A DNA stretch of 64,000 nt from Clytia hemisphaerica (Eukaryota), in contig NW_027104472.1 of assembly GCF_902728285.1 (NCBI RefSeq), positions 1,127,681 to 1,191,680 on the forward strand, written 5' to 3'. The position numbers and the translations under genes are program-made. The notes beneath the pieces were generated by a model. It was not told the DNA's origin and did not search any database. It was given only the letters and a program-made list of their open reading frames with translations. The first letter of the stretch is position 1. Every line of letters begins with the position of its first letter. Shown one piece after another: positions 21,700 to 57,854 of this stretch.

Positions 21700-21950
21700 G
21701 TTACTCTCGGGTACCTAATAGCCGGGGGGCCCCGCTAATTAATTTTTCGAAAATTTTCCACCCAGGACATTCTTATTCCAACCCCCCTGCTTATTGATTT
21801 TTGGGAAAATTTTTTTTGAAAGTTCCCTCTTTTGCCCTAATTCTGTTGTATCAGCCTCCTTTTCGAACATTTTCCACCCAGGACATTTTAATTCCAACCC
21901 CCCCGCTTATTAAATTTTGAGATTTTTTCCAACCCCCCTGCTTATTCCAA
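21700..21950. mobile_element. MITE family G, inverted truncated copy
   Basis: gttactctcgggtacctaatagccggggggccccgctaattaatttttcgaaaattttccacccaggacattcttattccaacccccctgcttatt... Confidence 0.6.
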
Positions 21951-28458: not shown

Positions 28459-30503
28459 TTAAGGCAATTCTTTTCCCTTTTCATCCGATATCCCAACATC
28501 CACCACGTCACCCAAAATGCTGTTCGAATGTTCAGTTTGTTGACTAACTTCCTCTATCAAGTCATATGAACATCTACAACACGGAAAAACATTCCCGAAC
28601 CCGATTTCTAAGCGGGCTAATATACGGGCTAATTTCGGGAACAAAGTAAACCGATCTTCCAATAATATAAATGTGATGAAGTATAGGCAAATCAGCAAAT
28701 TTCCAACTCCAATCACGAATGACTTGATTTGTAAAACGAGTAAATTGTCTCGGTTATCCAAAGCTGTATAAGAGAGGATGATAGGCACAAGTGTAATCAA
28801 GTTGAGAAAATTACCAGACATTGTAGTACAAAGTTTCTCAAACCATTTACGTTCAATCGCTGTCATAATTTCGGGACGTCTCGGTAAATATTTCTCATAG
28901 GGATCCAGGTAGAGTACTAGTACGATATTAATCACGAGTAAAGCGATAATAAAGGGTCGTTGTAGTCCCCAAGTGATCGGTATAAAGGATAAAATGACGG
29001 ATAACAACATCCAACGTAACGTCAAGAAAACAACAAACACTGAGTGACCATTATATACGCCATCAGGGAGGAACATAATCCCAATTTCGTTATTAACATC
29101 ATCTGGGAATAATTGTTTGAAATAAATATAATGCAATGTAAATGGTATTCCAAGGAAATAAAAGAAAGACCCGAATATACCCAACATTTGGATTATGGAT
29201 TTTAGTTCACATTTCTTCCATGGTTGTGATGACATATACCATATGCCAGTTACTGGGTCCATTTTACAACTCAGCGTACTTAAGCTCATGTTACTCAAAG
29301 GAAACTGAAGAACTGACATGAATAAACAGTAAGAAAGAAATGCTCTCCTCCAAACTGGAATCTTCTGTACAGAACCAACAATCAGCATGTACAGTACTAG
29401 CAGTATTCCTAGTATGAGTGGTAGACAAAAAATAAGTACAAACGCACCTTCCCAGCCTAAGTTCGTTCCAGTGTAAAAATTCGGTAAACAGGCTAAACCA
29501 GGGACAGGTGCGTACATCATTTCTAAAAACTGTAGAAGATATTTCATGAAATTTGGCCATACGAAGTTTCCTTGTAATAACGCTTGTAGTGTTTGTATGT
29601 AGAAAATGAAAGTGAGTGTAGCATGCGGTGGAGAGCGAAGTTGTTGCATGTAGACAATCACTACGATGAAGACCATGAATAAAACTGACGCTGTGGAGGA
29701 GATCCCGAGAAGGACCAATAAAACGGTAATTAAAACTTCCAACAGGTTTTGATCGGTCACGGCATATTCGTTGAACGCTTTCGCCGATTTATGTTTACGT
29801 ATGAAATAGACTGCAAGAATGAAAATTGACGTAAGAAGGGCAGCGATGACGCAAACGGTTTGGCGTAAACCCATTGCACACGGGGCACAATGGTAAGGTG
29901 CTTTACGGTAATAGCCGTTCTCACAGGCCGAACAAAGTCGATCTTTATGCCCGATCGGACAGGGGTTTGAGCATGAGCTTGTACATTTTGGATCGATATC
30001 TGAAGCCGTGCGGTTTTGACAATGTAGATGACAGACTGAGCCCGTACATGGTGTAAACCGAGACATAGTCGTTGAGCATTTTATAACTGCCTGTAAATTA
30101 CGAGGTGTGTCTGGCCAATAGCCTTTAGAAACGTATAAAACAGCATCAGTTAGGTTGGTTGAGCCACCAATACACATGGCATTAGGCAAGCAAGGAACAC
30201 ATCTTTTTGTAGCCGACCCATAGTAGCTGATTTTACAGTAGCAATCGTCTATGGTCTTCGCGCCGACCTTCGAAGTTGCATTCTCTGGGCACCTTTCTTG
30301 AGTTGGTTTGACTGATCCTTTTGGACAGTAATATCCAGATAGACACGTTTGTGGAGCATTTGCTGCTTCGTCGCCAGAGAAACTTTGAGCAGTACCAGCA
30401 GGGCAATACGTGCCAGCTGGACATAAATGAGGTGGTGTTGCTGTCTTGTCTAAAACGTCTGCGAGTGGGTTGGATGTTGATGTACCCTCTTGACAAAAGA
30501 ATC
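28459..30503 (-). CDS. Large minus-strand gene, terminal exon: ephrin-receptor-like (GCC2/GCC3-type CxxGxYC) cysteine-rich repeats followed by about 10 predicted TM helices
   Basis: ORF-track entry 28459..30588 (709 aa). Acceptor tatttttag|g (minus, ag at 30505-30504) gives (G)FFCQEGTSTSNPLADVLDKTATPPHLCPAGTYCPAGTAQ...CLSGYYCPKGS...CSACENGYYRKAPYHCAPC, then hydrophobic segments VCVIAALLTSIFILAVYFI, LITVLLVLLGISSTASVLFMVFIVVIVY, GAFVLIFCLPLILGILLVLYMLIV, IIQMLGIFGSFFYFLGIPFTL, VFVVFLTLRWMLLSVILSFIPI, FIIALLVINIVLVLYL, FLNLITLVPIILSYTAL, FVIGVGNLLICLYFITFILL and others. Stop at 28459-28461. Confidence 0.7.
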
Positions 30504-30699
30504 CTAAAAATACAATGTGGGAAAGAAGGTTTATATGAAAAGATTTATAAAAGAGATTAGCCTTTACATTTAGTACAACACGAACCACAAAATTTACAAA
30601 AAATTAAAGTGCACTATTAGGTTTGATTGCTAATTCCTATTCCATGTTTAATAAGTAAAAAGTCTGTTGCAAATTCTTAGGAAAAGACGTAATACATAC

Positions 30700-32000
30700 C
30701 TTCTGGGCAAGCACCACTAGGTTGCAGTTGACTGTAATCACTACAGTAAAATCCAGCGGGACATAAACGACATCCCAAACCAGCATGACCTGGTGTACAT
30801 CTTGAGCAAAAATAATTTCTAGGTAAGACTGTATCTACACCATAACCGTTAATACAATCACCTATTAAATCCACTTTCTGTAGATACGTTACGAAGGTTA
30901 TACCGAACGGTTTAGTGTCTTGACCGCTGTGTATCATCCCGATTCCCGCAATCAAATCCGTATGATCGAACCGGTATAGTAAACGAAATGGGCACGAATC
31001 AGTCGCATACATCAAAACAGTTTTCTCAAAACTGATCACAAGTCTTTGTGCGATTTCATTGAAATCAAGAATCGGGATATTAGTGACAAATAAATCGTCA
31101 TATTTGGATAATAAACTTCCGAATTTATGATCAATACTTTGCGTACATACAGGCTGTAGTGTGATCGATGAAATAAAGGAAATATGATAAGTTTGATTAA
31201 CAACATTGGCTAGCGGTGTCTCAGCGCATAAAACAACCATCTGTGCACGCACGTAATCGTTATAGTTCGTAACAGCGAGACAATTTGTTATTTTGCCTTC
31301 ACGTTGTAGCTCAATCTTGTAATTTTGAGCGATTTTGTATTCCAATATTTTAGTAGAGACATCAGTTGTATTATGAGAAGCCAACAAGAAGGTATCAACA
31401 TTCGTGAAATAGATCACCCAAATACGAGTTGATTCTGTAGCATCGAAATCATCCCATGTCCAGCTACCTTTTACTTCTGCTTGCGCAACAATACCGGACA
31501 TGTTATATGATATACGGGCCATGTCCGCAATACGGAAAATCTGAATAGTTAAATAGTCGTTCGAAAGTTCTTGCACGACCAATAAATGATCATTCTTTGG
31601 GTTGATTCCTGCTTGGATGACGAAGACTTTATCACTGACACTAACGATGGAACGTAGATCCGGTGAACTGGTGTTTGTTACGGTTATAGCGGAAGCGCTA
31701 AACGCACCATACGGGGAGCGGTAGTATGACAGGTAAGCGAATGTTTTACCATCGGGTGAAAAGAAAGCGAAAGGGTGTTCAAAATTATGATTGATTCCGA
31801 CAGTTGATAAAGTATCGGCGATGAAGAAGGAGTAAGCTTCTGCGTACTCGAAGTCAATACTCAGTGCATTTTCTTTACTACCGTCACGGAAGAAGAGACG
31901 CCCTCCGTGTGAGAATAGCCAGATGTCACGTGACTGGTGATTGACCAATAGGAAGGACTCAGCAGGTGTGATACTTGTTGCAAGTGAAGGGTAAAGTAAC
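30700..32000 (-). CDS. Large minus-strand gene, exon 3: PD40/beta-propeller-like region plus first Cys-rich repeats
   Basis: Contains ORF-track entry 30677..31948. Acceptor tcttcttctttttag|g (minus, ag at 32002-32001). Translation (R)LLYPSLATSITPAESFLLVNHQSRDIWLFSHGGRLFFRDGSKENALSIDF...FFSPDGKTFAYLSYYRSPYG...CSRCTPGHAGLGCRLCPAGFYCSDYSQLQPSGACPE(G). Donor GAAG|GTATGT (minus) at 30699, phase 1. The 196-nt intron to 30504 restores CPEG-FFCQEG, a complete Cys repeat. Confidence 0.6.
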
Positions 32001-32329
32001 CTAAAAAGAAGAAGATTACAATTATTTTGATCTAATCGATGTAATGTTCAAAGAAGACGTTATTTGGTGATAAAATTTATTATTAATAACATTGAATTTT
32101 TTGTTTTTTTGTAGTTTACTAAAATATTAGAATTAGGCGTAATATTAGAAGTTCAGGTTAATTGTGCAGCACTTCATCATAAAAAAATTACTTAAAAAAA
32201 AAAGAATATGTACAACTAAAATTTGCCAGTTTTTGAGAGGATCTCAAAAATTAGTTTTTGAACTTATGATTACATTTTCAACGAATGCAGGTAACGTCCA
32301 TTCAAGATTGAAAGAATTGAAATATTTAC

Positions 32330-32546
32330 CTAGATGCAATCAATGCTGGTTGTAGTTCAGCGCGTACGTTGAAAATGAATCCTTTAGGATCAGCTGTTGC
32401 GCTAGGTACAATTTCGAAGAAGAATGTATCGCTTGATGCAAAACCGAATCGATTGATAGCGACACCCAGTCTCCAAGCAGATACGGTAAATGTGGAGATC
32501 GGATATGCAGATTTTCGGTCACTAATATCGAAGATGCGAGGTTCAC
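32330..32546 (-). CDS. Large minus-strand gene, exon 2 (laminin-G/pentraxin-like segment). Reading frame ambiguous.
   Basis: Acceptor tctcaccttag|gt (minus, ag at 32548-32547) and donor TCTAG|GTAAAT (minus) at 32329. Chosen frame gives (G)EPRIFDISDRKSAYPISTFTVSAWRLGVAINRFGFASSDTFFFEIVPSATADPKGFIFNVRAELQPALIAS. Its phases join exon 1 (phase 1) and exon 3 (phase 2) exactly. All three frames are open here, so the frame rests on phase continuity. Confidence 0.4.
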
Positions 32547-32723
32547 CTAAGGTGAGATTTTGACAAATTAAAACGAATGTATCGATGTTAATTTGAGTGA
32601 CTAAATAAGAGGGATATGTGGATGGGGAAATACAGAAGTATAGGAGAAATTCTCAGGAGTTTTAGAGAAAGATTAGAAAGAAATTTTCAAGAATTTTAGA
32701 GTCCCAAAAATATGTTATGCTTT

Positions 32724-33050
32724 TTAGGTACCTTAAAGGAAGAAGTTTTGGCGGGAATTTAATTTGGCGGATGACCGAAAAAGTTTTTTCAGAGGGAATT
32801 TAATTTGGCGGATGGCTGGAAAAATTAAATTTGAAGGGAATTTAATCTGGCGATTGCAGAATATTTTTGGCCAAAATCGTTATCAAATAAGCGAAAAAAT
32901 TTTTGTTTTAAGGCCTGAAATAGCACCAAGTTGGGGAATGCGTTAAATAAAATAAATTTGGCGGGAATTTAATTTGGCGGATTGAGGAAAAAATAAATTT
33001 TGGCGGGAACCGCCAAATTTTCTTTCCGCTAAAATTTCTTCCTTTAACGT
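32724..33050. mobile_element. MITE family F copy 2, inside intron 1 of the large minus-strand gene
   Basis: ggcgggaatttaatttggcggatgaccg...ggcgggaaccgccaaattttctttccgctaaaatttcttcc. Confidence 0.55.
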
Positions 33051-33291
33051 AAGTCGTATGTATTGTGGTATTCTGAAAACATCAAACGCTAAACTACATC
33101 CGGTCTCATCTCATGGATGGATTCTCAAAGTTCATCAGGAAAATGACCAGGTGAGGTTATTTTGAAAATTAATCGGCGGAATCTTAGATCTACTTCCCGT
33201 TGAAATAACCTTACGTTTATCCTATGAAACCAAACTTTGAGCAAGGAAATAGCTAAGGCTAATTGATACTGGAGTGTAGAATTAAACTTAC

Positions 33292-34303
33292 CAAGAATTA
33301 GACAAGCAATCAAACTTCCTTCGTTTGAAACGCTGCATGGAAAATGTTCGCTTAACGATCCAGTCAACATGTTAAAAGTCATTACAAGGTCTTGTATTAC
33401 AAATCCTCCACATTTATAAAAATGATGTGTCAAACGCCCGGCACAGTAGACAGAAAAGAAGGTTTTGAAGGAATGTGTGTCTGCGTTTAAAACAATGTAT
33501 TTGTCCAGTGACAACATTCGTTCTCCATCCTCAGCTGTAAACATAAGACCGGCAACACTCTCGTTGTTCGGGTTAATGACACAACTGTCGACAACCAATT
33601 CCAATTCACGACACGCTCTTAACGGACATGAATATAAACACGAGTCAGAGAAAACGTACAGGAAGTCATATGATGCAGCCACGTCGGTTACTTTCAATTC
33701 ATTTTGCAGGTCACCTATCACGAGATTACTTTCAAGTTGGATTTTACTGTCTGGCCAATCGAGAACATTAATAATAGAATAAAGCTGTGTCTTCTTTAGC
33801 CAGACAAGAACGGAAGAAGTTTTATTTCCGATAACGTGTACATGGAGCTCTCGCAAGTTATCAAACGCAGTGTAAACCAGCTCTAAATCCGAATCATCTG
33901 TTTCTTTCGTTAGACAAGTCTTTGAGAGCCGAACCAAAAAAGCTCGGTTTTTAGTCTTGCATTGTAAAGCAACCAAGTAGACAAAAGGTTGCACTAATAG
34001 AGCACTTTGTACTGAAATACACGAATCCCCCGTTACATTTTTAAGATTGATCTTGACAAGAGCACAATTTGAGGGTCCACTTTCTTCAGAGAATATCGCA
34101 TTTGCTTGCATTACATCATCAAGTAACGCCCATTCGACAACTGTTGTGTTTCCATGGGATACTGTTTGATAGGACATCGGGTTTGGACCAAGGTTTTTCG
34201 GTTTGTATAAGGAATCTTCGTAAAGTTCGGGGAAATATAAATTGCAGTTGACAAAGATACATAATGATGCGAATAAGCATATGTATGAGAAATGGTTCCA
34301 CAT
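33292..34303 (-). CDS. Large minus-strand gene, exon 1: ATG, signal peptide, Cys-containing ectodomain
   Basis: ATG at 34303. Translation MWNHFSYICLFASLCIFVNCNLYFPELYEDSL... (hydrophobic signal peptide) ...CPLRACRELELVVDSCVINPNNES...SLIACLIL(G). Strong donor CTTG|GTAAGT (minus) at 33291, phase 1. ORF-track entry 33125..34303 runs past this donor into the intron. A weaker alternative donor CCTG|GTCATT lies at 33147. Confidence 0.55.
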
Positions 34304-35160: not shown

Positions 35161-36757
35161 GGGCTTTTCCAGAAAAAAATGTTGTTGGGGATATTGATTT
35201 TTTGAAGTATCGAACCCCCTGGATATCCACTCTTGAAAATATGCTCAACCCCCTGAATATCCTCTCTTATAAGAGGCCCCCCCAGACCCCAAATTCACGC
35301 CATCACGCCAATTTTTTTTCGATTTCACGCCATCACGCCTGAAAAATTTGATTTTCACGATCACGCCAATTTTTTTCGATTTCACGCCATTACGCCTAGA
35401 AAATTTAGTTTTCACACTCATATTCTAGCTGGATTGATTCAGTTTTATTTTAGACCACGTTTAGACCCATTGGTATGGATAAAATGCCGCTATAAAAACT
35501 TAATTTTTGCCTATAAATAGGTATGTGTTTGATCGTCAATCAGTTTTTTGGCATTCTCATTCGCGTAAGTCAAGAATATGCATTTTTCTTATCGGAAACA
35601 CCCGAAAAATCTGAAAGGAATTTGACCTGTTTTCCATTTTTAGTAATACACAGGGGTCAAATTCAAGTTTTTTCGGGTGTTTCTGATAGGAAGAATGACG
35701 TAATCTTGACTTATGCATATCAAAAATTGTGAGGGGCCATGCCCCCTCTGCCCCCCCCCCCCCCCCCCTGTTGACGGGACCCATGGGCATTAATTGTGAA
35801 TTAGCGTGAATAGTTTTCAAATGGGGAACGAGGAGGCGCAACCATGGTTTGCGCCGACGGAAGAAAATTTCTATTTAGTATGGCTACAATTGCCCTCGTT
35901 TGCTCTCTTTTTTCCAAAATATGGTTTAAACATCACAGGATTCCTTTGATCAATGCCAATCTGCTCAAAATTACACCTCATAATAAACCTGTTGCTTCTT
36001 TCTGTTTAAGCCTTTGCTATAAATATATATTTTCCTGAAATAAAGGACCTAATGTCTTTGATGCTTAAGAATAGGCATCTAAGAAAGAGAGGAAAATGTT
36101 AGTTACGGAGGAAACGCAACCATGGTTTGCGCCGACGGGAAAATTTTTAAATTTTGAGCCTCTCATAGCATTCGACTTTATTTTGAAGACTAGCTAGCAA
36201 CTGCTAAAGACAATTGGATGTTACAAGGATAAATGGCAGATGTGTTAAAACTGTTTGCACCGCTTCTTTTATGTTTTAAAATGAGAGCTATAGGAGGCCC
36301 CACTATAGTTGGGGCCGACCAAGAAAATTTTGAAATTTAAACCCTCTAAATTGGCTAAAATGGACATAGAATTACGATTCAAATAATAAATATAACTTTC
36401 ACGATCACGCTGAACTGCAAATTTCACGCCATCACGCCTAAAAAACCTCGATTTCACGGCACTTCATTTTCACGCCATCACGCCGTTTTTTTCAAAATTT
36501 CACGCCATCACGCCATGAAAAACCCTCCATCACGCCATCACGCCAACCGCTGGGGGGGGCCTCTTATAAAGATGCTTACCCCTAGATATCGTATTTTTAC
36601 TTGAATAGACATTTTACCCCCTGGATATATCAGCTCCCTTGGAAATATTTAACCCCTCGGATATCCACTTTTGAGAGCAAAAATTGTTAACCCCCTGGAT
36701 ATCCGATATCCTCAAAACGGGGCACGGACTATTTCTGGAAAAGCCTAAAGTATTTTT
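35161..36757. mobile_element. About 1.6-kb TIR element (family I termini ggcttttccagaaa) with cacgccatcacgcc tandem subrepeats in both arms and internal palindromes
   Basis: Left end ggcttttccagaaaaaaatgttgttgggg (35161 onward) and right end ...ggactatttctggaaaagcc (36737-36757). Arrays of tttcacgccatcacgcc at 35290-35420 and 36380-36540. Internal near-palindromes gcgcaaccatggtttgcgcc at 35837-35856 and 36117-36136. Poly-C and poly-G tracts at 35745-35765 and 36553-36562. Confidence 0.55.
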
Positions 36758-37327
36758 GTGGATTATATTTTGTTGGAGTTTGGTAAGTTTGGACCCACCA
36801 ATGAGACTAGGGCCACCTACACGCTTATTTCATAAGAATGTACACATTACAAGAATGTCCATGATGAAAATAGCCAAAAAATTAAGAATATGCTAAGAAT
36901 ATCACTATCATGGAATTTTGCTACTCAAACTAAGAATACCATTTTATGCTTGAGACTTGTGTACTAAATGTTAAATCTAGTCTGAGTTAGGATCCTAACA
37001 TCAGATCCTAACAGAATGTTGTAAGAATATTTTAGGATGATTTTCACCAAAAAAGTTAAGAATGTCCATGATGAAATGGATTTATGCCATTCTTATAAAG
37101 AAAAAGCGTGTGTGTTCTAAATCGAACAAATATCGCAATTGCAGATTAGGATGATCCGTAAATATTTTTCAATCATTAGCTTAGTTGTTCTAAAGGATGA
37201 GCGAGGCAAGCTCATATAATTAGTCATCTCATTTTATATAAAAAAAAAACAAAACGCTCGTTAATGTTTTGATTAGGTTGGTGAAATTAAAAGGCTGTAA
37301 TGAGCATCAATAGATGTTTTAATCGAA

Positions 37328-40300
37328 TGTACCTGTTGTGCGCAGATATGTAATTTTTGCGCAGGTATGTAATTTCTGCGCAGATATGTAATTATTTTGC
37401 GCAGATATGTAATTTTTGCGCAAATATGTAATTATTTTGCGCAACTATGTAATTTCGAGCTGCGCAGATATGTAATTAAATTTTTGCGCAGATATGTAAA
37501 ACACGATCTTTAAAATCAATGGTACCCCCTTGATAGCTTTTACCATTACTTTTACCTTTTTTTCGACTTAAGGTATTTTAGCTAATTCCTATCAAATACA
37601 AGAAGTAATATCTTATAACAACAATTTTTAGCTTTCGGTGATTGGTTCTTTCAAAGCAAAAATGGAATAGCGCCTTAAATGAAAGTAATTATTTTTCTTA
37701 TAAGAATCATCGTTATAAGAAAATTCTCTATAACTTTTCAACCACTAAGTTTTAGCTTTCGGTGATTGGTTCTTTCAAAGGAAACATGGAATAGCGCCTA
37801 AAATTAAACTAACTATTTTTCTTATAAGCATCATCTTTATAAGAAAATTCTCTATAACTTTTCAACCACTAAGTTTTAGCTTTTGGTGATTGGTTCTTTC
37901 AAAGGAAACATGGAATAGCGCCTAAAATTAAAGTAATTATTTTTCTTATAAGCATCATCTTTATAAGAAAATTCTCTATAACTTTTCAACCACTAAGTTT
38001 TAGCTTTCGGTAATTGGTTCTTTCAAAGGAAACATGTAATAGCGCCTAAAATGAAAGTAATTATTTTTCTTATAAGCATCATCTTTATAAGAAAATGATC
38101 TATAACTTTTCAACCACTAAGTTTTAGCTTTCGGTAATTGGTTCTTTCAAAGGAAACATGGAATAGCGCCTAAAATGAAAGTAATTATTTTTCTTATATA
38201 AGAATCATCTTTATAAGAAAATTCTCTATAAATTTTCAACCACTAAGTTTTAGCTTTCGGTAATTGGTTCTTTCAAAGGAAACATGGAATAGCGCCTAAA
38301 ATGAAAGTAATTATTTTTCTTATAAGCATCATCTTTATAAGAAAAATTATTTATAACTTTTCAACGACTAAGTTTTAGCTTTCGTTGAATGGTTCTTTCA
38401 AAGCAAAAATGGAATAGCGCCTTAAATGGATGTGACTATTTTTGTTATAAGCATCAGCTTTATAAGAATTAAATCAACAACTCTAGATAGACGGTCATAT
38501 ACCTTTCGGTAATTAGTTCTTACAAAGTAAGTAAGGGACGGCGCATAATATGATCATATTTATTTGTCTTATAAGGAACTACTTTATAAGAATCAAATCA
38601 ATAACTCTTGATAGACGGTGATATACCCTTCGGTCATTAGTTTTTACCTTCTGATAAGCATATACTTTATAAAGAATCAAATCAATAACTCTTAATAGAC
38701 GGTGATATACCCTTCGTTTATTAGTTCTTACAAAGTAAACAAGGGACAGCGCACAATATGAGCATATTCATTTTTCCTATAAGCAACTACTTTATGAGAA
38801 TCAAATAACTCTTGATAGAATAGTATTTACCTTTCGGTAATTACCGTACACGCTCCTTCTCTGAGAAAAAAGACTCCCTCAATGGGAGGTTTTAAAATTT
38901 TTAATTAACACCTTTTTCTTTAACACCCTTCCTGAAAGTCTTAAAATTAAAAAGACGCCCAGCGCGTTTATTCGAAGAAATACGATAGTTTTTACAACCT
39001 AATAGAAAAGTACAAATGAGATTTTTGATAGAACCTCGACTCGAGATAGTCACACCTATGTAAACTTTATTGATTTTGTAGATATGAATTGCATTTCTTT
39101 ACGTTACAGTGAGATAAAGTAAATTCTATTGGTTGTCTTTACCAATACATGGACTAATTTATGATAAAAAAACTCCCTTTTCCTTTTCATGGCTCGATCT
39201 ACGAGCAAAGTCATTAAATTTGATTGAATTGTCCAATGAAATAGAGTGGGATTATCGAAGTTGTGATTCTCGCTCGAACTTCAAATTCTGAAGAATGTTA
39301 CACAATTCAGGAATATTTTGACACTGATTGTTAAAGATATTTAAAAAAATTACATGTCTTTCTTATTTTCCCCTTACAAATTAAACTAAGGCAAAATATT
39401 TGACTTTAAGCCATCTAAAAGGAGACAAATTTAATTTTTTTGAAGTGGAATTGGCATTCACAATGACACAATGGCTCTATCGAAAGAAATAGGGAATTTT
39501 GCTAAATCTAACATTAGTTTATTAGAATTTTATAAGAACAAGGTTTTTTTCTAAGTGGAATAGGCTTTCAGAGATTTGATTTAGCAAACAAAAGCCAACA
39601 AATCTTGTTTGGGAGTTATGAATTGTGTTCTTATAAAGTTGATGCTCATGAGAAAAACAAAATTTTCTAGCTTAAGCACTATCCTATGTTTGCTTTGAAA
39701 GAACCGATCACCGAAAGCCAATATCTATTGGTTTGAGAGTTTTGATTTGTGTTCTTATAAAGTTGATGCTTATAAGAAAAATTTTTTTTCTAGCTTCAGC
39801 ACTATCCTATGTTTGCTTTGAAAGAACCGATCACCGAAAGCCAATATCTATTGGTTTAAGAGTTATGAATTGTGTTCTTATAAAGTTGATGCTTATAAAA
39901 AATAAATTTTTCTACCTTAAGCACAATCCTATATATGCTTTGAAAAAACCAAACGCCGAAAGCTAATAATCATTGGTTTAGGAGTTATGAATTGTGTTCT
40001 TATAAAGTTGATGCTTATAAGAAAAAAAAATTTCTAGCTTTAGCACTATCCTATGTTTGCTTTGAAAGAACCGATCACCCAAAGCCAATATCTATTGGTT
40101 TGAGAGTTATGAATTGTGTTCTTATAAAGTTGATGCTTATAAAAAAATAAATTTTTCTAGCTTAAGCACAATCCTATATATGCTTTGAAAAAACCAAACG
40201 CCAAAAGCTAATAATCATTGGTTTAGGAGTTGTGAATTGTGTTCTTATAAAGTTGATGCTTATAAGAAAAACAAAATTTTCTAGCTCAAACATTATCCTA

Positions 40301-40906
40301 TGTTTGCTTTGAAAATACCGATCACCGAAAGCTAATATCTATTGGTTTGGGAGTTATGAATTGTGTTCTTATAAAGTTAATGCTTATAAGAAAAATAAAT
40401 TTTTCTAGCTTAAGTACAATCCTCTATTTGCTTTGAAAAAACCTAACACCGAAAGCTAATAATCATTGGTTTAAGAGTTATGAATTGTGTTCTTATAAAG
40501 TTGATGCTTACAAGAAAAACAAAATTTTCCTCATTAGCACAGTCCCCTAGTTGCTTTGATAGAACCAAACGCCGAAAGCCAATATCACTTTGATAAAAAG
40601 ATATTGACTTGTTTCTTATAAAGATGATGCTTATAATAAAAACAACAATCGCCAAATGTTTGCCTTAGGTCCAAGAAAAATGTTCAAGATATTACTTAAT
40701 TAATGTTAAAATTTAGTTAGTTTTTCAAAAAATAACCAAGTCAAAAAGGTCGTGTTTTACATATCTGCGCAGAAATTTAATTACATATCTGCGCAGCTCA
40801 AAATTACACAGTTGCGCAAAATAATTACATATTTGCGCAGAGATTACATATCTGCGCAGAAATTACATATATGCGCAAAAATTACATATCTGCGCATAAC
40901 AGTACC
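37328..40906. mobile_element. Foldback-like transposon, about 3.6 kb. Long inverted arms are built of tandem subrepeats.
   Basis: Outer inverted repeats of the motif tgcgcagatatgtaatt, 9 times at 37338-37500, versus aattacatatctgcgca, 7 times at 40760-40900. Inner arms are tandem arrays of about 124-bp units (37570-38860, contains gctttcggtgattggttctttcaaag). They are inverted in the right arm (39590-40660, contains ctttgaaagaaccgatcaccgaaagc). The central unique region 38860-39590 has no long ORF. Confidence 0.75.
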
Positions 40907-41240
40907 TCTTATTCTAACCTTTCTTTCCCATTAATTCACACACCTTATCTTGCAATAGCTATTCAAAAGAATTATAGCATTAAATAAAGCGTATCATGAA
41001 TATTAAAAGAAATATCTTAACTAAGTTTCGATGAGAATTTATCGATATAATAGTTATAGATCAGAAAGTACTTTCATTTGAAAGATCCGAGAAAGAAAGA
41101 TGGTAAGGTATTATGAGAAATCATTGTGTTAGAAAAAAATTGCGATTTTAAAAATCAGTGAGTTCAAGTTTTTTTAGAAATTTATACGGTTTGATACAGT
41201 GAATTATGTACTTTTTAAAAACATTGCGTCATGAGTACAT

Positions 41241-42908
41241 GTGACGATGGCTGCTAATAACGAACCGTTTCATCTATACCATTTACAGCTATTTGCTGTA
41301 AGTTCTATTGGACAACTTGCTTTACAGAAACTTATTGAGCGTTTTGCGAAGGAAGAAAAAGAAGGTGTTGCTGATGCTAAGGAAGCACTAAGTCAAATTT
41401 TTAATGACAATGCGGAGGAAGTGAAAAAGATTACCAATATATTTGTCAACCCTATTGTCACAAATGCAGTTTACGAAAACACTGTTAACCATGTTCTTAA
41501 AGAAGAGATTGAAATTGAAAAGTTAGACACCAACACATGTGCTGATGTCCTACGCAGAATCAAAGCGTTCCAAACTTCTAAAGATCATGCAGGTTCAAAA
41601 AATTGGCGTTGCAAAGGGCAAAACCATTTGAGTAAATGTTGCCCAGATTGTAAACATCTATGTCCTCAGCCTGACTGTCGGAAGGTAAAATGTAAAAAGA
41701 AGTGCTGTGTAACAAACAAAGAACACTGCTCTCATCCATGTATTCATTGTTGTTTACCTAACGACGACTGTAAGGATAACAAATACCTATGCTGTAAAGA
41801 TTGTTCATGCCTTGGCTGCGTACTGAAAGCCCTGGGTCTCAAAACTTGGCATCAACTTTACAAGGCTTTGGTTGACGAAAGCTTAACGACACACAACGTT
41901 TGTCCGATATTGCTACTACGGCTATCAATTTCAATTATTTCAACCTTCCGTAACATAACCATGCACTTGACAATACCTACATGTCGGAGTATGGACAATG
42001 GAACCTTTTTTGACCCAAATGCCCCTGCATATTGTACTTCATGGAAATACATCAAAGATACTCTTTGGTTTGCTGTTAAGACCTTGTTGGAGTATTTGAA
42101 AAACTGTCAACATATCACTGGATTTGATTATAAAGAACATTCTGAACTATTGGCTTTAATTTGTGGGGCTTCAAACAAACAGGATGTTTCAGTGTACAGT
42201 GCAAGGATTCAAAAGTTTGCAGAGCTTGAGAAATATTCTAAAATGGCCGATCTATTGATAACGTTAAAGATTGATTTAGATGTCGTCCATAAAAAGGTGG
42301 ACAAGGTAGATCAAACCACAAGGAATACCGAGAGAATTATCAAACAAAAGTCCCTAAAGATTGAAGCTCAAGCCGAGTTAGGGAAAAAGATGGACCGACC
42401 CTGTGATATGGATTCGCCGGAATTCGAAGAATTGAGAACAGCATTTGGAATCTCTGTAAACAAGTATTTTGGAGATGATGCCGAGGCAGTTATTACTCGC
42501 TTCAAATCGTTTCCATCTAACCATTTACCAGCAGACACGATTGAAATAAGATTCAAGATAACGTCAGATGAGACTTCCCTAAGAAATTATCGAGAATATA
42601 GAAAGGGACAGTCCCCGTCGTCCCCTCTTTGGAATGAAATAAAAGGAATCTTGCAACATACATTTCCTGGTGCTGAAATTTATGGTCCTGTTGATTGGGA
42701 CAGTGGCTCTATCATAATTCAAGTTTTGCTTTCGAAGGAAAAGAAAACTGACTGGACCACAAAGGAACTTGCGAATGTTGATTCTGTATTGGTGAAACTG
42801 GAAAAAAATGTTGAAGATTACTTACCTCAAGTGAAATGTGCTTGTAAACGAGTGGAACAGCCGAAGATATCAGCTACCCAGTTTCTGGAGATGAAAAACA
42901 GACAATAG
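41241..42908 (+). CDS. Intronless 555-aa ORF, Cys-rich central region, no recognised family
   Basis: ATG at 41241, TAG at 42906-42908. 1.67 kb free of stops in roughly 33% GC DNA. Central cluster CKGQNHLSKCCPDCKHLCPQPDCRKVKCKKKCCVTNKEHCSHPCIHCCLPNDDCKDNKYLCCKDCSCLGC. AT-rich TATA-like sequences lie upstream. Confidence 0.5.
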   Translation: MTMAANNEPFHLYHLQLFAVSSIGQLALQKLIERFAKEEKEGVADAKEALSQIFNDNAEEVKKITNIFVNPIVTNAVYENTVNHVLKEEIEIEKLDTNTCADVLRRIKAFQTSKDHAGSKNWRCKGQNHLSKCCPDCKHLCPQPDCRKVKCKKKCCVTNKEHCSHPCIHCCLPNDDCKDNKYLCCKDCSCLGCVLKALGLKTWHQLYKALVDESLTTHNVCPILLLRLSISIISTFRNITMHLTIPTCRSMDNGTFFDPNAPAYCTSWKYIKDTLWFAVKTLLEYLKNCQHITGFDYKEHSELLALICGASNKQDVSVYSARIQKFAELEKYSKMADLLITLKIDLDVVHKKVDKVDQTTRNTERIIKQKSLKIEAQAELGKKMDRPCDMDSPEFEELRTAFGISVNKYFGDDAEAVITRFKSFPSNHLPADTIEIRFKITSDETSLRNYREYRKGQSPSSPLWNEIKGILQHTFPGAEIYGPVDWDSGSIIIQVLLSKEKKTDWTTKELANVDSVLVKLEKNVEDYLPQVKCACKRVEQPKISATQFLEMKNRQ

Positions 42909-44535: not shown

Positions 44536-45039
44536 AGGGTTCTTTCTTAGGTTCTTTTTTTTTTTTGCTTTCTGAACAAAGTTTCAACTTTAGATACGTT
44601 AAATCATTTTACAGCTTACCAATTGCAAAATTTAATCATTTTAGGGCTGTTCAACCGCTTAAGTGGTACCCGGGGGACACTCGATTCAAAAACGACCGTA
44701 CGCACGCCCCCCCCCCTCGGAGTGGTAATTAACAGAGAGGGGAAATTTAGCTTAAAAGTTAAAGTGGGATGCTAAATGACTACCTGAAAAGTGGGATGGG
44801 GGAACCCGGGAACCTAAAGTGGGAACCTAAATGAACACCTGAAAAGTGGGATGGGGGAACCTGGGAACCTAAAGTGGGAACCTAAATGAACACCTGAAAA
44901 GTGGGATGGGGGAACCTGGGAACCTAAAGTGGGAACCTAAATTTTTATTTTTATTTATTTTTATTTTTTTTTTATTTTTTTTTTTTATAGCAATATATTT
45001 CGCAGGTCTATTGACCTCTATGAAACAGAACTTTTGATT

Positions 45040-45297
45040 TTACATTTTATAAAGTTTTTTCTCCCTTTCTTTTATCAAACGCTCTTTGAAGACTTGTAAG
45101 GATGGTGCTTCAACAATTTCTTCTTCTAGATCATTCCAAGGTTTCACACTTCTGTAAAAAAGAGAGTTGCTTTGGTAGCCTCTCATACCGTCATTAGCAA
45201 AGTTCCTTTGAACAGGGTTCCCAGCACTTAAGAGAAATGTTTTTTCCTGACTTTTTCCAAAAAAAAGACCTTTTTCCATGACTTTTAGATTGACCAA
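45040..45297 (-). pseudogene. Second LINE RT tail fragment (extreme C-terminus)
   Basis: Translation RNFANDGMRGYQSNSLFYRSVKPWNDLEEEIVEAPSLQVFKERLIKE. This matches the terminal CR1-like motif FF..RV...WN.LP..VV.A.S...FK..LD. Confidence 0.6.
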
Positions 45298-46345
45298 GGT
45301 GCCTTTTTCCCTGACCAGAGCAGAATATTGGGCCTTTTTCCCTGACCGTTCGCCCCAACAGTATTTTGAAAAACACCATATTGAGATAAAAAAAACAAAA
45401 ACTTAACACAATTTCAATACATATATTTTTTAAAAAGCGAGTCTACTAAAACCCCACTAAAACCAGGATACAAAAGGGGTACCGTCGTATGAACGTGCTA
45501 TCATTTGAATGAAAACTTTTCTCTTTCTAAAAAGATTTTCTTCAATATGCATCATTGCTGATAATCCTTTCTTCATTCCAAGATAATAAACATTACTTTT
45601 GTCAATTTACATTCATTTTAAGAAAATAGCTCCTAATTCAGTCACTCATTTTATTCACAACTCATTATAAATATTATTAGACACGTGCAATTTATATCAT
45701 CACGTAGCAAATTTCAAAACTAGGATGAATGGGAAAACATTTTAGGTTTGCTAGATTCAAAAACTTTATCTTATAGGCTCTACCTATACACAGGCCGAAA
45801 AAACTATATCCTGCAATATCAAAACTAAAACCATATCATACAGCTATATGAGCTAAAAATATAATCCAACAGTTGAATTTCTAACTTAAAAAGTGAATAA
45901 TAACATTTAAGTTCGCTCAAAAAATATTCTGAGATCTACTTAAGTTTTTGGCGTTTTGCTTTTATTTGTGTATGTAAGTCATCAAGGTCCTCATTGAGTT
46001 CATTCTGCCTTCTTTTTAAAGTATTAGCCTTAGTAATCAAAGAGACCATTTCGTTTGGGCGTTTTTCTGCCTCACTGACTAGATTGACGAAATCACTGTC
46101 GAGTGACTGGCAAGTCTTTTTGATTTTAGATTCCTTTGCAACAAGCTCATCAATCGCTCTTTGAAGAAGTTCTCTTTTTTCTTTCAAGGCATCCTTTGCT
46201 TCAATGTCAGCCTTTTCCTGTAAACTTTCTTTGTAACGTGTATGGGCTGATTTGCAAGACAACACTAGTTTAGATGGTGGAGAAAAGTCTTTTTCTTATT
46301 ACTCATTTTTCCGAGGGGTAAATCACTAAAAATTAGGTGTACGAG

Positions 46346-46518
46346 ATTTTGATTTCTTTTTGATTTTTGATTTCTTTTTGATTTCTTTTTGATTTTTGAT
46401 TTTTTTTTTGATTTTTTTTGATTTTTGATTTTTTTTTTGATTTCTTTTGGATTTCTTTTGGATTTCTTTTGGATTTCTGATTTCTTTTTGATTTCTTTTT
46501 GATTTCTTTTTGATTTTT
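46346..46518. repeat. Minisatellite gatttc(t)ttt(t)t(g) inside a small hairpin-ended unit (46306-46560)
   Basis: More than 20 units of gatttctttttgatttttgattt. Flanks gaggggtaaatcactaaaaattaggtgtacg and cgtacacctttttgaaaaatc...cagtgatttacccctcg are inverted. Confidence 0.7.
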
Positions 46519-46836
46519 CAAAAAGGTGTACGTGATTTTTTTCAGTGATTTACCCCTCGCATTTTTCTACCACTAAAACGAAATAAAAGAAAGAAGAATG
46601 AAGAGATAAGTAAAACAAAACTGTCAGAACTGTGGACTAAATAAATATCACAGAGCTCATACGATACACCAATACTTACTGGCTGATAAAATACCTGCAA
46701 AAATGAAAGATGAAAAGGATAATATCATTTCAATTATCATTTGTAATTTGCAGTTGACTGATTTTGGAATTCCCTGACTTTCCCTGATTATTCCAAAAAA
46801 AGTTCCCTGACTTTTCCCTGACTTTCACTACTTTTT

Positions 46837-47433
46837 CTAAATTTTCCCTGACTTTTCCAGGTCTTCCCTGACTTTTTCCGAAAAAGCTACTTTTTCCAGG
46901 TTTTCCAGGTTTTCCCTGACCGCTGGGAACCCTGTTTGAAGCTCGTAATCATGCTGACGTCGTGGTCGTGTTCGAGGAGTAAATTTCTCTGATCTTATAG
47001 ACTCGTCATAAATGTGGAGGTTCTTGAAAACTTCCACCATATCACCAACTTGCCGTCTGGTCTTTAGGCTAGGTAGATTGATGAGTCGTAGCCGATCTTC
47101 GTATGAGTAGTTTTTATAGCAACTAACTAGCCTTGTAGCTCTTCGTTGGACGCCCTCGATTGCATTGATATGTTTGATTAGCCTTGGAGACCATACTACA
47201 TGTGCATATTCCAAATGGGGTCTGACAAATGCAATGAAAAGCGTTCGAAACATATCTGGTGAGAGAAATTCGAAGCTCCTGCTAATCAAGCCAACGATAG
47301 AGTTAGCTTTCTTGATTTTACTGAATATATGGGCTTCAAAGGTCAGGTCACTATCAATTATCACTCCTAGATCTTTTTCTTGGTCAACATGTTCTAGAAC
47401 AGATCCTGCTATGGTATTTGTAGGGATGGACAT
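46837..47433 (-). pseudogene. Degenerate non-LTR (CR1/Jockey/L2-type) reverse-transcriptase C-terminal region
   Basis: Translation KDLGVIIDSDLTFEAHIFSKIKKANSIVGLISRSFEFLSPDMFRTLFIAFVRPHLEYAHVVWSPRLIKHINAIEGVQRRATRLVSCYKNYSYEDRLRLINLPSLKTRRQVGDMVEVFK. This matches the conserved LINE ORF2 tail pattern (..LGV.ID..L.W..HI..KAN..LG.L.R.......LYK..VRP.LEY...VW.P.....IE.VQRRATR......SYE.RL..L.L.SL..RR..GD.IEV.K). There is no upstream RT core. Confidence 0.7.
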
Positions 47434-49656
47434 ATTTGATGTTCCAAAATTTACCCAGTGTTAAAACATGACACTTGTTCGGATGAAATTCTAAAAGCCA
47501 GTCCTTTGACCAAATTTTAAACCCGTAGAGTGCACTTATTCTCATTTTTGCTCATCTTCACCCTTACAGTGTACTTTGGGAAGCTTGGAAAAAAGGGCCG
47601 CACGTACGGTAGGTCGTTTACCTTGAGTGCCCCCCCCCCCGTGGATCTATGCTTATGTGTATTGAAACGTGGCAAGCCGTGCAATATGTTCTATTTTACT
47701 ATCAAACATTTTTAATTAATGAAGGGTATTCACACGCTGTACTGTTTGGTTGGTACAGAAAGAAAAACGAGCTAGAATCCGTTAAATGCTAAGCGACCCC
47801 AGCCCTGACCCGAAAATTGGAGCTGCTAATAAAAAACAATGTGTATTGCATCAAGAGTGAACAAAAACTAGATCGTAAATAATGTTTTACTAGATTCTGT
47901 ATTCAAGCAAATTAGATCCGTGCAAAAGAAAGAAGAGGCTCTAAGTTATCCATCGAGCTATGAACGAACTTCTAATTCCTTCTAGATTTGAAGATATGAC
48001 GGTTTAAAGTTTAAAGTTTAAAGTCAATTAAGTCAATTTACTAAAAAGAACCTTTCAAAAAGATGCACTATAAAACTGCTGATAAATAAACATGCTTTTT
48101 TGAGCTAATTGAATAAATAAATTCCCTTTGTTTTATTTTCAACATTATTGTTTGCGAACCGTAATGTAAGAAGTAAATAACTGGTGTTCTTATTATGATA
48201 AAAGGTTTTTTCTTTCATTGCATATAATATCTTTCTTATCTTTATGTATTTGTTTTTAAAGAAAAATATTTCAATTATATTAATAATTAAACAACTTAGG
48301 TTCCCACTTAGGTTCCCCCATCCCACTTTTCCGGTAGTCATTTAGGTTCCCACTTTAGGTTCCCGGGTTCCCCCATCCCACTTTTCAGGTAGTCATTTAG
48401 GTTCCCACTTTAGGTTCCCGGGTTCCCCCATCCCACTTTTCAGGTGTTCATTTAGGTTCCCACTTTAGGTTCCCGGGTTCCCCCATCCCACTTATCCGGT
48501 ATGCCATTTTTTCGGTACAAAATCTTCTATTTTATTGCAAATTTCAAATTAAGATATCTTTTTATATAGTAATGCTATGAACTTGAAATTTTGACAGTAG
48601 TTTTGCATGGACAAGACAAACCATTTCCAGAAAAAATTTTTTTGATTACGTCATAATTTTAAAATGGCGCGCCAAAATCAGAAAAATTAATTTTTGAGAC
48701 TTTGGCGCCAAATAGGGGCTTATTTAGTGGGGAATTCATTTGGCTACCAAGTTTCATATTGAAAAAAAAGCCCGGCCCAAATCGGGTTAAACCGCGTAAT
48801 TTATTGAATATTTAGGATAAAATAAGCATTTTAGATTTAGGCAATATTTTTCTAAAGCCTTTGTTAGAATACAATAGCTATTTATAAGAACAAAAGAAAT
48901 TTTCGGTTTTTGCTCACTTTGGGCATGATGAGTGACGTCATAAAAAAATTTTTTGTCAAAAGTTACCTTATGTGACAAGGATCTTGTGTGCCAAACTTCA
49001 TCCAAAAAGACCCACTAGGTCAAAAGTTAAGGGGTGGTACAGGAAAAGCCCGCCCCCTAGTTTTGAGCCGCCCCTAAAAACCTAGTATGAATAGGATTGA
49101 GTTAACCTGAAATCTCATAATTATCTAGACAAACCTGCGTACTTATTTTTGAAACACCCGGTCTATTTGAAAAACTTAAACGAGAGAAAGAGAAAAAATT
49201 GACGTTTTTGGGACCCTTAGAGAGCCCTGTAATTTTCTGTTTACAACCCTTTTTTGAGAGAGAGAAATTTTAGAGCGTAACCCTTATTGTAACCGACTTT
49301 CTAGTGTGTAAAAATGAGACCCTTGTGGCTCGCACATACCCGACACCCATTTTGCCTATGTATTTTGCCTCCCCCCCCGGGATCGAACCTGGCAAAATGA
49401 ATCCTTTGAAAAAATGTAATTGTCTGTGCCTCTGAGTTGGTATCAGCTAAGATTGTTCTTGGTAATTACATAAAATGTATTATTCTTAATTACGGTATTA
49501 CTTCGAATAAACGCCCCCTTCTTTTAAACGTTCCCTAGAATAAACACCACTCCTGCAATCACAGCAATTTAGTAAACGCCCGGTCGTTGGCGTTTGTTCA
49601 AAGTAAGACGGTATGCTGCTTATGAGGCTTATGTCTGCTTTTATTTCTCCTTTCAG

Positions 49657-57512: not shown

Positions 57513-57854
57513 TTTAATGGGATAAATTTTCGCGGATTTCGCGGATTTGGGTGTCATCCGCGAAAATAAGCCCCATTGGAAATTTGAGAAAGGCCCATCC
57601 GCGAAATATTTCTAAACAAAACTCAAAATATGTCAAATAAATACTATTTGAATGGTTACTTGCATCAAAGAGGCGCAAATAATGTGTATTTCAACAACCA
57701 ATATGCATGATTTGACAGTAAAAGTCACAAAATCGAGAAAAATAATGCCCCCTAATAGTGCCATCCGCGAAAATTAATCCCCGCGAAATCTTAAAATTTC
57801 GCGGATGAGCTCAACCGCGAAATTTAATCCCCGCGAAAATTTATCCCATTAAAG
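57513..57854. mobile_element. MITE family E, copy 2 (inverted relative to 11748-12064)
   Basis: ctttaatgggataaattttcgcggatttcgcgg ... aatccccgcgaaaatttatcccattaaag. Confidence 0.7.

What the first reader, a model, noticed from the sequence alone, without database searches (positions are those of the whole stretch)
37328..40906. Foldback-type transposon with two-tier inverted arms (17-bp terminal motif repeats plus about 124-bp subterminal tandem units)
The left arm is built from tgcgcagatatgtaatt repeated about 9 times, followed by about 10 units of 124 bp. The right arm is the reverse complement: about 9 units of ..ctttgaaagaaccgatcaccgaaagc.., then aattacatatctgcgca repeated about 7 times. 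Arms of tandem repeats that reverse-complement each other around a short unique centre are the hallmark of Foldback (FB) elements. There is no coding capacity in the centre, so the element is non-autonomous. The subunit sequence itself contains the palindrome cttataag.
Basis: seen in the sequence. Interest (0 to 1): 0.55.

Follow-up and report, generated by a model that had tools for sequence, protein, structure and literature searches.

The report
Non-coding foldback-type transposon in a hydrozoan
This is a real 3.6-kb mobile-DNA relic with no genes, made of two mirror-image arms of tandem repeats; it is an ordinary example of the known "foldback" transposons, apart from end sequences that differ from the classic fly elements.

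Summary
Window 37334-40901 is one inverted-arm element.

- **Terminal motif:** the core TGCGCANNTNTGTAA occurs 15 times in 64 kb, 8 on + at the left end and 7 on - at the right end (0.01 expected by chance).
- **Inner arrays:** 9 full plus 1 partial 124-bp units on the left and 8 plus 1 on the right, in opposite orientation.
- **Centre:** 775 bp, unique, with no coding capacity.
- **Fold:** as single-stranded DNA, 783 of 1290 predicted pairs join arm to arm.
- **Ends:** inverted identity is 90% inside the ends and 40% outside them. A perfect 5-bp direct repeat, GTACC, abuts both ends (p about 0.002).
- **Arm conservation:** the terminal 117 nt are 94% alike between arms. The spacers (49%) and arrays (65-75%) are not, which suggests selection on the ends.

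The best reading is a non-autonomous foldback-type cut-and-paste transposon, moved in trans by a transposase that binds the phased 17-bp sites. The host is a hydrozoan related to Clytia.

The superfamily is unresolved. TGTTR ends plus a 5-bp duplication resemble Ginger/TDD integrase-type elements. A 9-bp duplication with one mismatch (Mutator/FB-like) is not excluded. No second copy could be found with the available collections, so mobility rests on this one copy. It is a new member of a known kind, of modest interest.

The parts
37329..37333 (.). Left copy of the putative target-site duplication, GTACC
   Evidence: Perfect 5-nt direct repeat abutting both ends. A 5-nt match at fixed boundaries has probability about 0.002 in this window.
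37334..37338 (+). Left terminus, TGTTG (fits the TGTNR pattern)
   Evidence: Inverted identity is 90% inward and 40% outward of this point. The TGTNR pattern is that of Ginger elements and Gypsy LTR ends (PMC2836005).
37339..37501 (+). Left terminal array: 8 copies of the 17-bp motif TGCGCAGATATGTAATT, spaced 19-24 bp start to start. Putative transposase-binding sites.
   Evidence: The invariant core is TGCGCA-NN-T-N-TGTAA.
37502..37630 (+). Left subterminal spacer, unique and poorly conserved between the arms
   Evidence: About 49% identity to the right spacer in a global alignment.
37631..38828 (+). Left array of 124-bp units: 9 full plus 1 partial. The outer 7 are homogeneous; the inner 3 are a diverged variant.
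   Evidence: TRF, unit alignment, nhmmer mapping.
38829..39603 (.). Unique non-coding middle domain of 775 bp. It holds a roughly 80-bp fragment of another window repeat at 39222-39300.
   Evidence: Longest ORF is 52 aa with no Pfam hit. Positions 39222-39300 are 75% identical to 2461-2539.
39604..40655 (-). Right array of 123-124-bp units: 8 full plus 1 partial, with two alternating variants giving a 245-bp higher-order period
40656..40754 (-). Right subterminal spacer
40755..40896 (-). Right terminal array: 7 copies of the 17-bp motif, in the same order of variants and spacers as the left array minus one copy
   Evidence: The inner 117 nt are 94% complementary to 37395-37511.
40897..40901 (-). 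Right terminus, TAACA (reverse complement TGTTA, fits TGTNR)
40902..40906 (.). Right copy of the putative target-site duplication, GTACC

Best explanation
Window 37334-40901 is a single insertion of a non-autonomous class II (cut-and-paste) transposon with foldback architecture, sitting in a hydrozoan genome.

Each end carries 7-8 phased copies of a 17-bp motif (TGCGCA-NN-TATGTAA-TT, 19-24 bp apart, roughly two helical turns). These are most likely the binding sites of a transposase encoded elsewhere in the genome. Binding at both inverted ends would pair them, excise the 3.57-kb unit and reinsert it with a staggered cut. That cut most likely left the 5-bp duplication GTACC.

Inside the binding-site arrays, each arm holds about 9-10 copies of a 124-bp unit. 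These units expand, contract and homogenise independently in each arm by unequal exchange. The middle 775 bp is filler with no coding role.

Shown: the anatomy, the snap-back potential, the sharp ends, the flanking direct repeat, the absence of coding capacity, and the selective conservation of the ends.

Inferred: mobility itself, the binding role of the 17-bp motif, and the length of the stagger.

The superfamily is open. TGTTR ends with a 5-bp duplication point to an integrase-related (Ginger/TDD-like) transposase rather than the Mutator-type enzyme of classic FB elements.
For: 1. Motif arrays: 15 of 15 window matches to the motif core lie at the two ends in opposite orientation, against 0.01 expected. 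The order of motif variants and spacers is the same in both arms.
2. Unit arrays are inverted and colinear.
3. Sharp ends: inverted identity is 0.90 over the first 62 nt inward and 0.40 over 60 nt outward. A perfect 5-nt direct repeat abuts both ends, p about 0.002.
4. Uneven conservation: the terminal 117 nt are 94% alike between arms, while the spacers are about 49% and the arrays 65-75% alike. Within an arm the units are 85-93% alike. After insertion both parts would drift equally, so the ends must have been held constant while the interior diverged. That is what is expected if only the ends are needed for transposase recognition.
5. Folding as single-stranded DNA gives -679 kcal/mol against about -300 for shuffles, with 783 of 1290 pairs linking arm to arm.
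6. No ORF over 77 aa, no Pfam, Rfam or tRNA hit in the element.
7. The same architecture (terminal domain, tandem-repeat domain, non-coding middle domain) is described for Tetris, Tm1 and Galileo. In those papers the repeats are proposed to carry extra transposase-binding sites, reported as found in one Galileo subfamily.
8. The termini TGTTG and TGTTA fit the TGTNR pattern of Ginger elements, which are abundant in Hydra. TDD-4/5 make 5-bp duplications.
Against: - Only one copy is available. No second copy of the motif or the unit exists in the 64-kb window, in JGI metagenome contigs, among predicted proteins of public assemblies searched with translated repeats, or in the loci fetched around paralogous genes.
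- No transposase was found, so the link between the motif and an enzyme is inference.
- The duplication length is ambiguous from one copy. These fit almost as well as 5 bp: 3 bp (TAC with CTGTTR ends), 7 bp with one mismatch (TGTACCT/AGTACCT), or 9 bp with one mismatch and asymmetric ends (GTACCTGTT/GTACCTCTT).
- GTAC is itself a palindrome, so part of the flanking match can be read as an extension of the inverted repeat.
Confidence: 0.75

Rival explanations
1. It is a Mutator-superfamily foldback element in the strict sense (a relative of Drosophila FB, Tm1 or Tetris). It made a 9-bp duplication, GTACCTGTT/GTACCTCTT, that has since picked up one substitution, and it has short asymmetric terminal nucleotides outside the repeat arrays.
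For: - A 9-nt flanking match with one mismatch exists.
- Most foldback elements with a known enzyme are Mutator-like, with 8-10-bp duplications.
- Tm1 has asymmetric 7-bp end motifs outside its inverted repeat and arrays of a roughly 14-bp motif in the arms, so asymmetric ends have a precedent.
- With about 6% divergence between the ends, one change in 9 nt is expected about 40% of the time (inference).
Against: - This reading leaves the right end with 5 nt (TAACA) and the left end with 1 nt outside the first motif.
- It treats as coincidence the fact that TAACA is the reverse complement of the left TGTT(G).
- The 5-bp reading needs no mismatch and gives symmetric ends.
- No Mutator-like transposase domain was found among the 28 window ORFs scanned against Pfam.
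Confidence: 0.15
2. It is not mobile. It is a local palindromic duplication of a minisatellite locus, for example by template switching or hairpin-capped break repair, and the flanking 5-mer match is chance.
For: - Only one copy was seen.
- No transposase was found.
- The window is rich in tandem arrays and inverted repeats of several kinds.
- External searches were all negative.
Against: - A palindromic duplication should diverge evenly along the arms. Here the outermost 117 nt are 94% alike, while the spacer and arrays are 49-75% alike.
- Similarity stops abruptly at the TGTT ends, exactly where a perfect direct repeat starts.
- Phased arrays of a short motif at both extreme ends are the usual design of transposase-binding ends.
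Confidence: 0.06
3. It is a composite or chimera: two related half-elements (solo arms) that landed head to head, or a recombinant between two family members, enclosing unrelated DNA.
For: - The unit arrays of the two arms differ by about 25-35%. The right arm has a two-variant 245-bp higher-order repeat that the left arm lacks.
- Chimeric Galileo copies with unusually divergent arms are documented.
- The centre carries a fragment of another repeat.
Against: - Chimeric Galileo copies are bounded by non-matching flanking sequences. Here the flanking 5-mers match perfectly.
- The terminal arrays share the same order of motif variants and spacers, which suggests one lineage.
Confidence: 0.04

Closest known systems
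Tetris (Drosophila virilis foldback transposon; PMC4079207)
   Same: - Non-autonomous element.
- Long inverted arms built from an outer flanking domain, then a domain of tandem repeats (about 220 bp there, 124 bp here), then an inner domain.
- A non-coding middle domain.
- Repeat number differs between arms.

   Different: - Tetris has 8-10-bp duplications and is assigned to Mutator on that basis.
- Its outer domain is not described as an array of a short motif.
- It is an insect element, not a cnidarian one.
- Here the cleanest duplication is 5 bp, and the outermost tier is itself a 17-bp motif array.
Tm1 (Meloidogyne Mutator/Foldback family; PMC3169594)
   Same: - Arms made largely of a variable number of a short (13-15 bp) tandem motif.
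- Many copies lack coding capacity.
- The arms of one element are on average 93% alike.

   Different: - Tm1 has 9-bp duplications, asymmetric 7-bp end motifs and a Phantom/Mutator transposase in autonomous copies.
- No second tier of about 124-bp units is described.
- Here the ends are symmetric TGTTR, and no enzyme is known.
Drosophila FB and Galileo (P superfamily) foldback-like elements
   Same: - Long, internally repetitive inverted arms.
- Tandem repeats in the arms expand and contract independently, and are proposed to carry secondary transposase-binding sites.
- From my own knowledge (Potter 1982, not re-read here), FB arms also change repeat period from the end inward.
   Different: - Galileo makes 7-bp duplications and encodes a P-like transposase.
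- FB is grouped with Mutator.
- Neither has TGTNR ends, as far as the papers read here state.
Ginger1 and Ginger2/TDD integrase-related DNA transposons (PMC2836005)
   Same: - Termini follow TGTNR, as here (TGTTG and TGTTA).
- TDD-4/5 make 5-bp duplications.
- The group is most diverse in a hydrozoan, Hydra.

   Different: - Ginger arms are 40-270 bp and are not described as tandem arrays.
- Ginger1 duplicates CCGG or CCGT (4 bp), and metazoan Ginger2 makes 4-bp duplications in AT-rich RTATAY targets. GTACC fits neither.
- No integrase-like ORF was found here.

Membership tests
Foldback-type elements (structural class) | Long terminal inverted arms that make up most of the element and let a single strand snap back | tested here: met
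   The arms 37334-38828 and 39604-40901 are 2793 of 3568 bp. They are colinear when one is reverse-complemented. 783 of 1290 MFE pairs link arm to arm, and the energy is -679 against about -300 kcal/mol for shuffles.
Foldback-type elements (structural class) | Arms composed of several domains that include tandem repeats | tested here: met
   A 17-bp motif array (8 and 7 copies) followed by 124-bp unit arrays (9+1 and 8+1 units).
Foldback-type elements (structural class) | Middle domain of variable content, often without coding capacity | tested here: met
   The 775-bp centre has no ORF over 52 aa and no Pfam hit.
Foldback-type elements (structural class) | Flanking target-site duplication | tested here: met
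   Perfect GTACC on both sides, p about 0.002 at fixed boundaries. The length is uncertain from a single copy.
Foldback-type elements (structural class) | Dispersed copies at different genomic sites | not testable with these tools
   The source genome is not searchable here. The window, metagenome, genome, viral and protein-space searches found no second copy.
Mutator-superfamily foldback elements (FB, Tm1, Tetris) | 8-10-bp target-site duplication | tested here: inconclusive
   GTACCTGTT/GTACCTCTT matches 8 of 9, but only with ends out of register by 4 nt. The symmetric reading gives 5 bp.
Mutator-superfamily foldback elements (FB, Tm1, Tetris) | Autonomous copies encode a MULE/Phantom-type transposase | not testable with these tools
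   No autonomous copy is available. No transposase domain was found among the 28 window ORFs scanned against Pfam.
Galileo / P superfamily | 7-bp (Galileo) target-site duplication | tested here: inconclusive
   TGTACCT/AGTACCT matches 6 of 7 with symmetric GTT... ends. This is a worse fit than 5 bp but is not excluded.
Ginger/TDD integrase-related transposons | TGTNR termini | tested here: met
   Left TGTTG, right TGTTA as reverse complement.
Ginger/TDD integrase-related transposons | 4-bp duplication (CCGG/CCGT for Ginger1; metazoan Ginger2) or 5-bp duplication (TDD-4/5) | tested here: inconclusive
   No symmetric 4-bp reading exists. The 5-bp reading fits only the Dictyostelium TDD-4/5 value, and GTACC is not CCGG/CCGT.
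Ginger/TDD integrase-related transposons | Integrase-like DDE transposase in autonomous copies | not testable with these tools
   No autonomous copy was found. No rve-type hit among the window ORFs scanned.

The most novel reading that the evidence does not exclude
The element is a foldback-architecture derivative of an integrase-related (Ginger/TDD-like) DNA transposon. That would make this a third superfamily, after Mutator and P, in which long arms of tandem binding-site repeats evolved independently. Here it would have a Mu/Tn7-like design: TGT ends, a 5-bp stagger and 7-8 phased sites per end.
Probability: 0.2. Interest if true: 0.45.

Novelty: new member of a known kind. Interest (0 to 1): 0.25.

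Why it matters
Foldback-type elements cause inversions and other rearrangements, and they can seed satellite DNA (Tetris, PMC4079207). In the paper library searched here I found no description of one in a cnidarian. This copy gives a clean, fully parsed example with a candidate 17-bp transposase-binding motif.

If genome-wide copies confirm TGTTR ends and 5-bp duplications, it would add to the evidence that the foldback design arises convergently in unrelated transposase lineages. As it stands, it is an ordinary repeat annotation for a hydrozoan genome.

Tried and rejected
**Searches for further copies**
- Metagenome scan with motif + gap + TGCGCA gave 0 hits.
- Metagenome scan with the most conserved unit core, TATAAGCATCAWCTTTATAAG, gave 15 loci. 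Each had one match and similarity limited to 21-43 nt, so they are chance matches.
- The bacterial/archaeal genome scan gave 2 hits. Both lie in the same bacterial coding region at the start of a gene, so they are chance matches.
- The viral scan gave 2 isolated 17-mers.
- A composite of the element's translated pseudo-ORFs, searched against 5.8 billion predicted proteins to catch other copies called as 'genes', gave nothing.

**Empty-site and neighbouring-locus tests**
- The flanking ORF 41247-42905 has no exact record and no homologue above 55% identity, so no allelic or orthologous empty site could be examined.
- Loci fetched around paralogues of the gene at 28459-34303 (L001, L002, L018, L019) share only the gene, with no element and no shared repeats.

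**Known RNAs and coding capacity**
- Rfam gave only sub-threshold miRNA-like hits: 31 bits against a gathering score of 56, and lower.
- There are no tRNAs.
- The internal ORFs have no Pfam hits.

**Other readings considered**
- CACTA/En-Spm, which has subterminal repeats and a 3-bp duplication: set aside because the ends are not CACTA-like.
- Transib, which makes a 5-bp duplication: set aside because, from my own knowledge, its ends are CAC... and these are TGTT.
- An LTR retrotransposon, which has TG..CA ends and a 5-bp duplication: rejected because the arms are inverted rather than direct and there is no coding region.
Full report
**1. What is in the sequence**

Reading 36800-41400 and running Tandem Repeats Finder shows four arrays:
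- a 19-bp-period array at 37339-37477/37499;
- a 124-bp array at 37626-38468 (6.8 copies, 93% matches);
- a 123-bp array at 39613-40645 (8.4 copies, 85%, with a 245-bp higher-order period);
- a 19-bp-period array at 40779-40896.

The 17-bp motif TGCGCAGATATGTAATT, allowing up to 2 mismatches, occurs 8 times on the + strand at 37339-37501 and 7 times on the - strand at 40755-40896. Its invariant core TGCGCANNTNTGTAA matches 15 times in the 64-kb window. All 15 are in these two blocks, against 0.01 expected from shuffles.

A 29-nt core of the 124-bp unit is found 7 times on + in the left block and 6 times on - in the right block, and nowhere else. A profile HMM built from the units maps 9 full plus 1 partial unit on + (37631-38828) and 8 full plus 1 partial on - (39604-40655). 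No significant hit lies elsewhere in the window.

The arrays are therefore inverted, not direct.

**2. Anatomy of the arms**

A local alignment of the left arm with the reverse complement of the right arm is colinear from the terminal motifs through the spacer into the unit arrays.

The terminal arrays share the same order of motif variants and spacers:
- Left: m-TT-m-TC-m-ATTT-m-TT-m(AAATATG)-ATTT-m(AACTATG)-TCGAGC-m-AAATTTT-m.
- Right: the same series, minus one copy.

Start-to-start spacing is 19-24 bp.

Identity between the arms is very uneven:
- inner 117 nt of the terminal arrays: 94%;
- subterminal spacers: about 49%;
- unit arrays: 65-75%.

Within an arm the units are 85-93% alike. The left arm has 7 homogeneous units plus 3 inner units of a diverged variant. 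The right arm alternates two variants.

Two stretches of the unit are conserved across both arms: GCTTTCGGTGATYGGTTCTTTCAAAG and the near-palindrome TTCTTATAAGCATCAWCTTTATAAGAA.

**3. Ends and flanks**

Walking outward from 37334 and 40901, inverted identity is 0.40 over 60 nt. Walking inward it is 0.90 over 62 nt.

Directly outside these points lies a perfect direct repeat, GTACC (37329-37333 and 40902-40906). The chance of a 5-nt match at fixed boundaries in this window is about 0.002. The ends then read TGTTG...TAACA.

One copy cannot fix the duplication length. Other readings that fit:
- 3 bp, TAC, with CTGTTR ends;
- 7 bp with one mismatch, TGTACCT/AGTACCT;
- 9 bp with one mismatch, GTACCTGTT/GTACCTCTT, with ends out of register.

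The 5-bp reading needs no mismatch and no coincidence beyond G...C at the ends of the 5-mer, so I prefer it. The 3-bp and 5-bp readings predict the same empty site, AATGTACCTCTT.

**4. Content**

The longest ORFs inside the element are 77 and 70 aa, both within the right array. The centre has none longer than 52 aa.

None has a Pfam hit. Rfam gives only miRNA-like hits far below the gathering scores. There are no tRNAs.

The centre, 38829-39603, is unique apart from an 80-nt fragment of another window repeat.

Folded as single-stranded DNA, the 3568-nt element reaches -679 kcal/mol against -278 to -321 for five shuffles. 783 of 1290 pairs connect the left arm to the right arm, and 147 of the first 179 nt pair with the last 180. 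It is a foldback structure in the literal sense.

**5. Host and surroundings**

The window is 33-41% G+C, poor in long ORFs and rich in repeats.

The ORF at 28459-30588 (-) has homologues at 68-83% identity. One of the 90% clusters contains XP_066933808.1 of Clytia hemisphaerica.

The ORF at 41247-42905 starts 335 bp to the right of the element. Its best named relatives are also from Clytia, at 30-38% identity.

Exons of a tyrosine kinase and a rhodopsin-type receptor are present.

The source is therefore a hydrozoan related to Clytia, but apparently not a genome represented in the protein collection. No transposase domain was found among the 28 window ORFs scanned against Pfam, which include nearly all of those of 95 aa or more.

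**6. Search for other copies**

All attempts failed or returned chance matches:
- two metagenome scans (with the blastn check);
- the prokaryotic genome scan, whose two hits fall in one bacterial coding sequence;
- a viral scan;
- a protein-space search with the element's translated pseudo-ORFs;
- the loci around paralogous genes.

The genome-wide copy test could not be done with these tools.

**7. Interpretation**

The design has three parts: phased short motif arrays at both extreme ends, a tandem-repeat domain inside them, and a short non-coding middle. This is the design described for foldback-type transposons:
- Tetris has a flanking domain, then 220-bp repeats, then inner and middle domains, and is non-autonomous.
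- Tm1 has arms made of a roughly 14-bp tandem motif.
- Galileo has tandem repeats in the arms that vary independently between arms.

The Galileo paper proposes that such arm repeats carry secondary transposase-binding sites, and reports them in one Galileo subfamily.

The strongest internal argument for a transposon lineage, beyond the flanking duplication, is the uneven conservation. After insertion a copy drifts evenly. Ends that are 94% alike next to interiors that are 49-75% alike mean the interior had already diverged while the ends were kept. That is the expectation if only the ends must be recognised by a transposase. A local palindromic duplication would not behave this way.

I therefore read the element as a non-autonomous foldback-type cut-and-paste transposon, mobilised in trans through the 17-bp sites (confidence 0.75).

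**8. Which family**

'Foldback' is a structural label. The papers read here state that the structure evolved in different lineages: mostly Mutator, with 8-10-bp duplications, and also P (Galileo, 7 bp).

Here the symmetric reading gives TGTTR ends and a 5-bp duplication. TGTNR ends are the signature of Ginger1 and Ginger2/TDD integrase-related transposons and of Gypsy LTR ends. TDD-4/5 make 5-bp duplications, and Hydra carries the most diverse Ginger1 set.

Against that reading, metazoan Ginger elements make 4-bp duplications at other target sequences. Their arms are 40-270 bp and are not described as tandem arrays.

The Mutator reading survives through the 9-bp, one-mismatch option. Tm1 sets a precedent for asymmetric end nucleotides.

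I do not assign a superfamily.

**9. Verdict**

- Mobility is likely but rests on a single copy.
- The implied 9-bp, FB-like kinship is not shown.

This is a new member of a known kind, with modest interest. The only unusual point is the end and duplication signature, which a genome-wide copy search would settle.

Noticed in passing
window 44760-44942 and 48311-48509: A second, unrelated pair of inverted tandem arrays: 55-bp units, 3.3 and 3.6 copies, 94-96% complementary, 3.4 kb apart. This may be another foldback-like element whose interior was invaded by other repeats.
   Followed up: partly
window 45040-45297 (-) and 46837-47433 (-): Two ORF pieces that by eye look like the C-terminal tail of a CR1/jockey-type LINE reverse transcriptase (KDLGV...VRPHLEYAHVVWSP...WNDLEEEIVEAPSLQVFKERL), followed by a T-rich tract at 44942-44986. 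Pfam gave no hit, so the assignment rests on my own knowledge.
   Followed up: partly
window 45213-46934: A 1.7-kb insertion splits that LINE tail. It has 13-bp inverted ends, CAGGGTTCCCAGC/GCTGGGAACCCTG, flanked by the direct repeat TTTGAA (45207-45212 and 46935-46940). It also has subterminal TTCCCTGAC-like repeats, an internal 11/29-bp microsatellite (46347-46518) and a 109-aa coiled-coil-like ORF.
   Followed up: partly
window 59197-59394 and 60370-60567: A 198-nt inverted repeat, 94% complementary, 975 nt apart. It is likely a short TIR element.
   Followed up: no
window 14667-14818 and 21799-21950; 16216-17081: A 152-nt inverted repeat (91%) spans 7 kb that contains a 156-bp tandem array (5.6 copies, 94%, with a 311-bp higher-order period).
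   Followed up: no
window 28459-34303 (-): A large cysteine-rich multi-pass membrane protein gene with very few introns. It belongs to a multi-copy family: four 90%-identity clusters of 5-51 member sequences in ENA, Logan and JGI assemblies, one of which includes a Clytia hemisphaerica RefSeq protein. There is no Pfam domain.
   Followed up: partly
window 35294-35415 and 36388-36524; 36851-36869 and 37058-37076: Just left of the element there are arrays of a TCACGCC-containing 30/57-bp repeat and a duplicated 19-mer, AAGAATGTCCATGATGAAA. The 19-mer contains CATGATGAAA; from my own knowledge this is the start of the Drosophila P-element end, so probably a coincidence.
   Followed up: no
window 41241-42908 (+): A 555-codon intron-free ORF begins 335 bp to the right of the element. 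It is cysteine-rich, has no Pfam domain, and has only hydrozoan-type homologues (30-55% identity; the named ones are from Clytia). The element may therefore lie in its upstream region.
   Followed up: partly
window 2458-2580 and 5545-5667; 57762-57855 and 62761-62854: Short dispersed direct repeats at 89-91% identity. A fragment of the first family also sits in the element's centre at 39222-39300.
   Followed up: no
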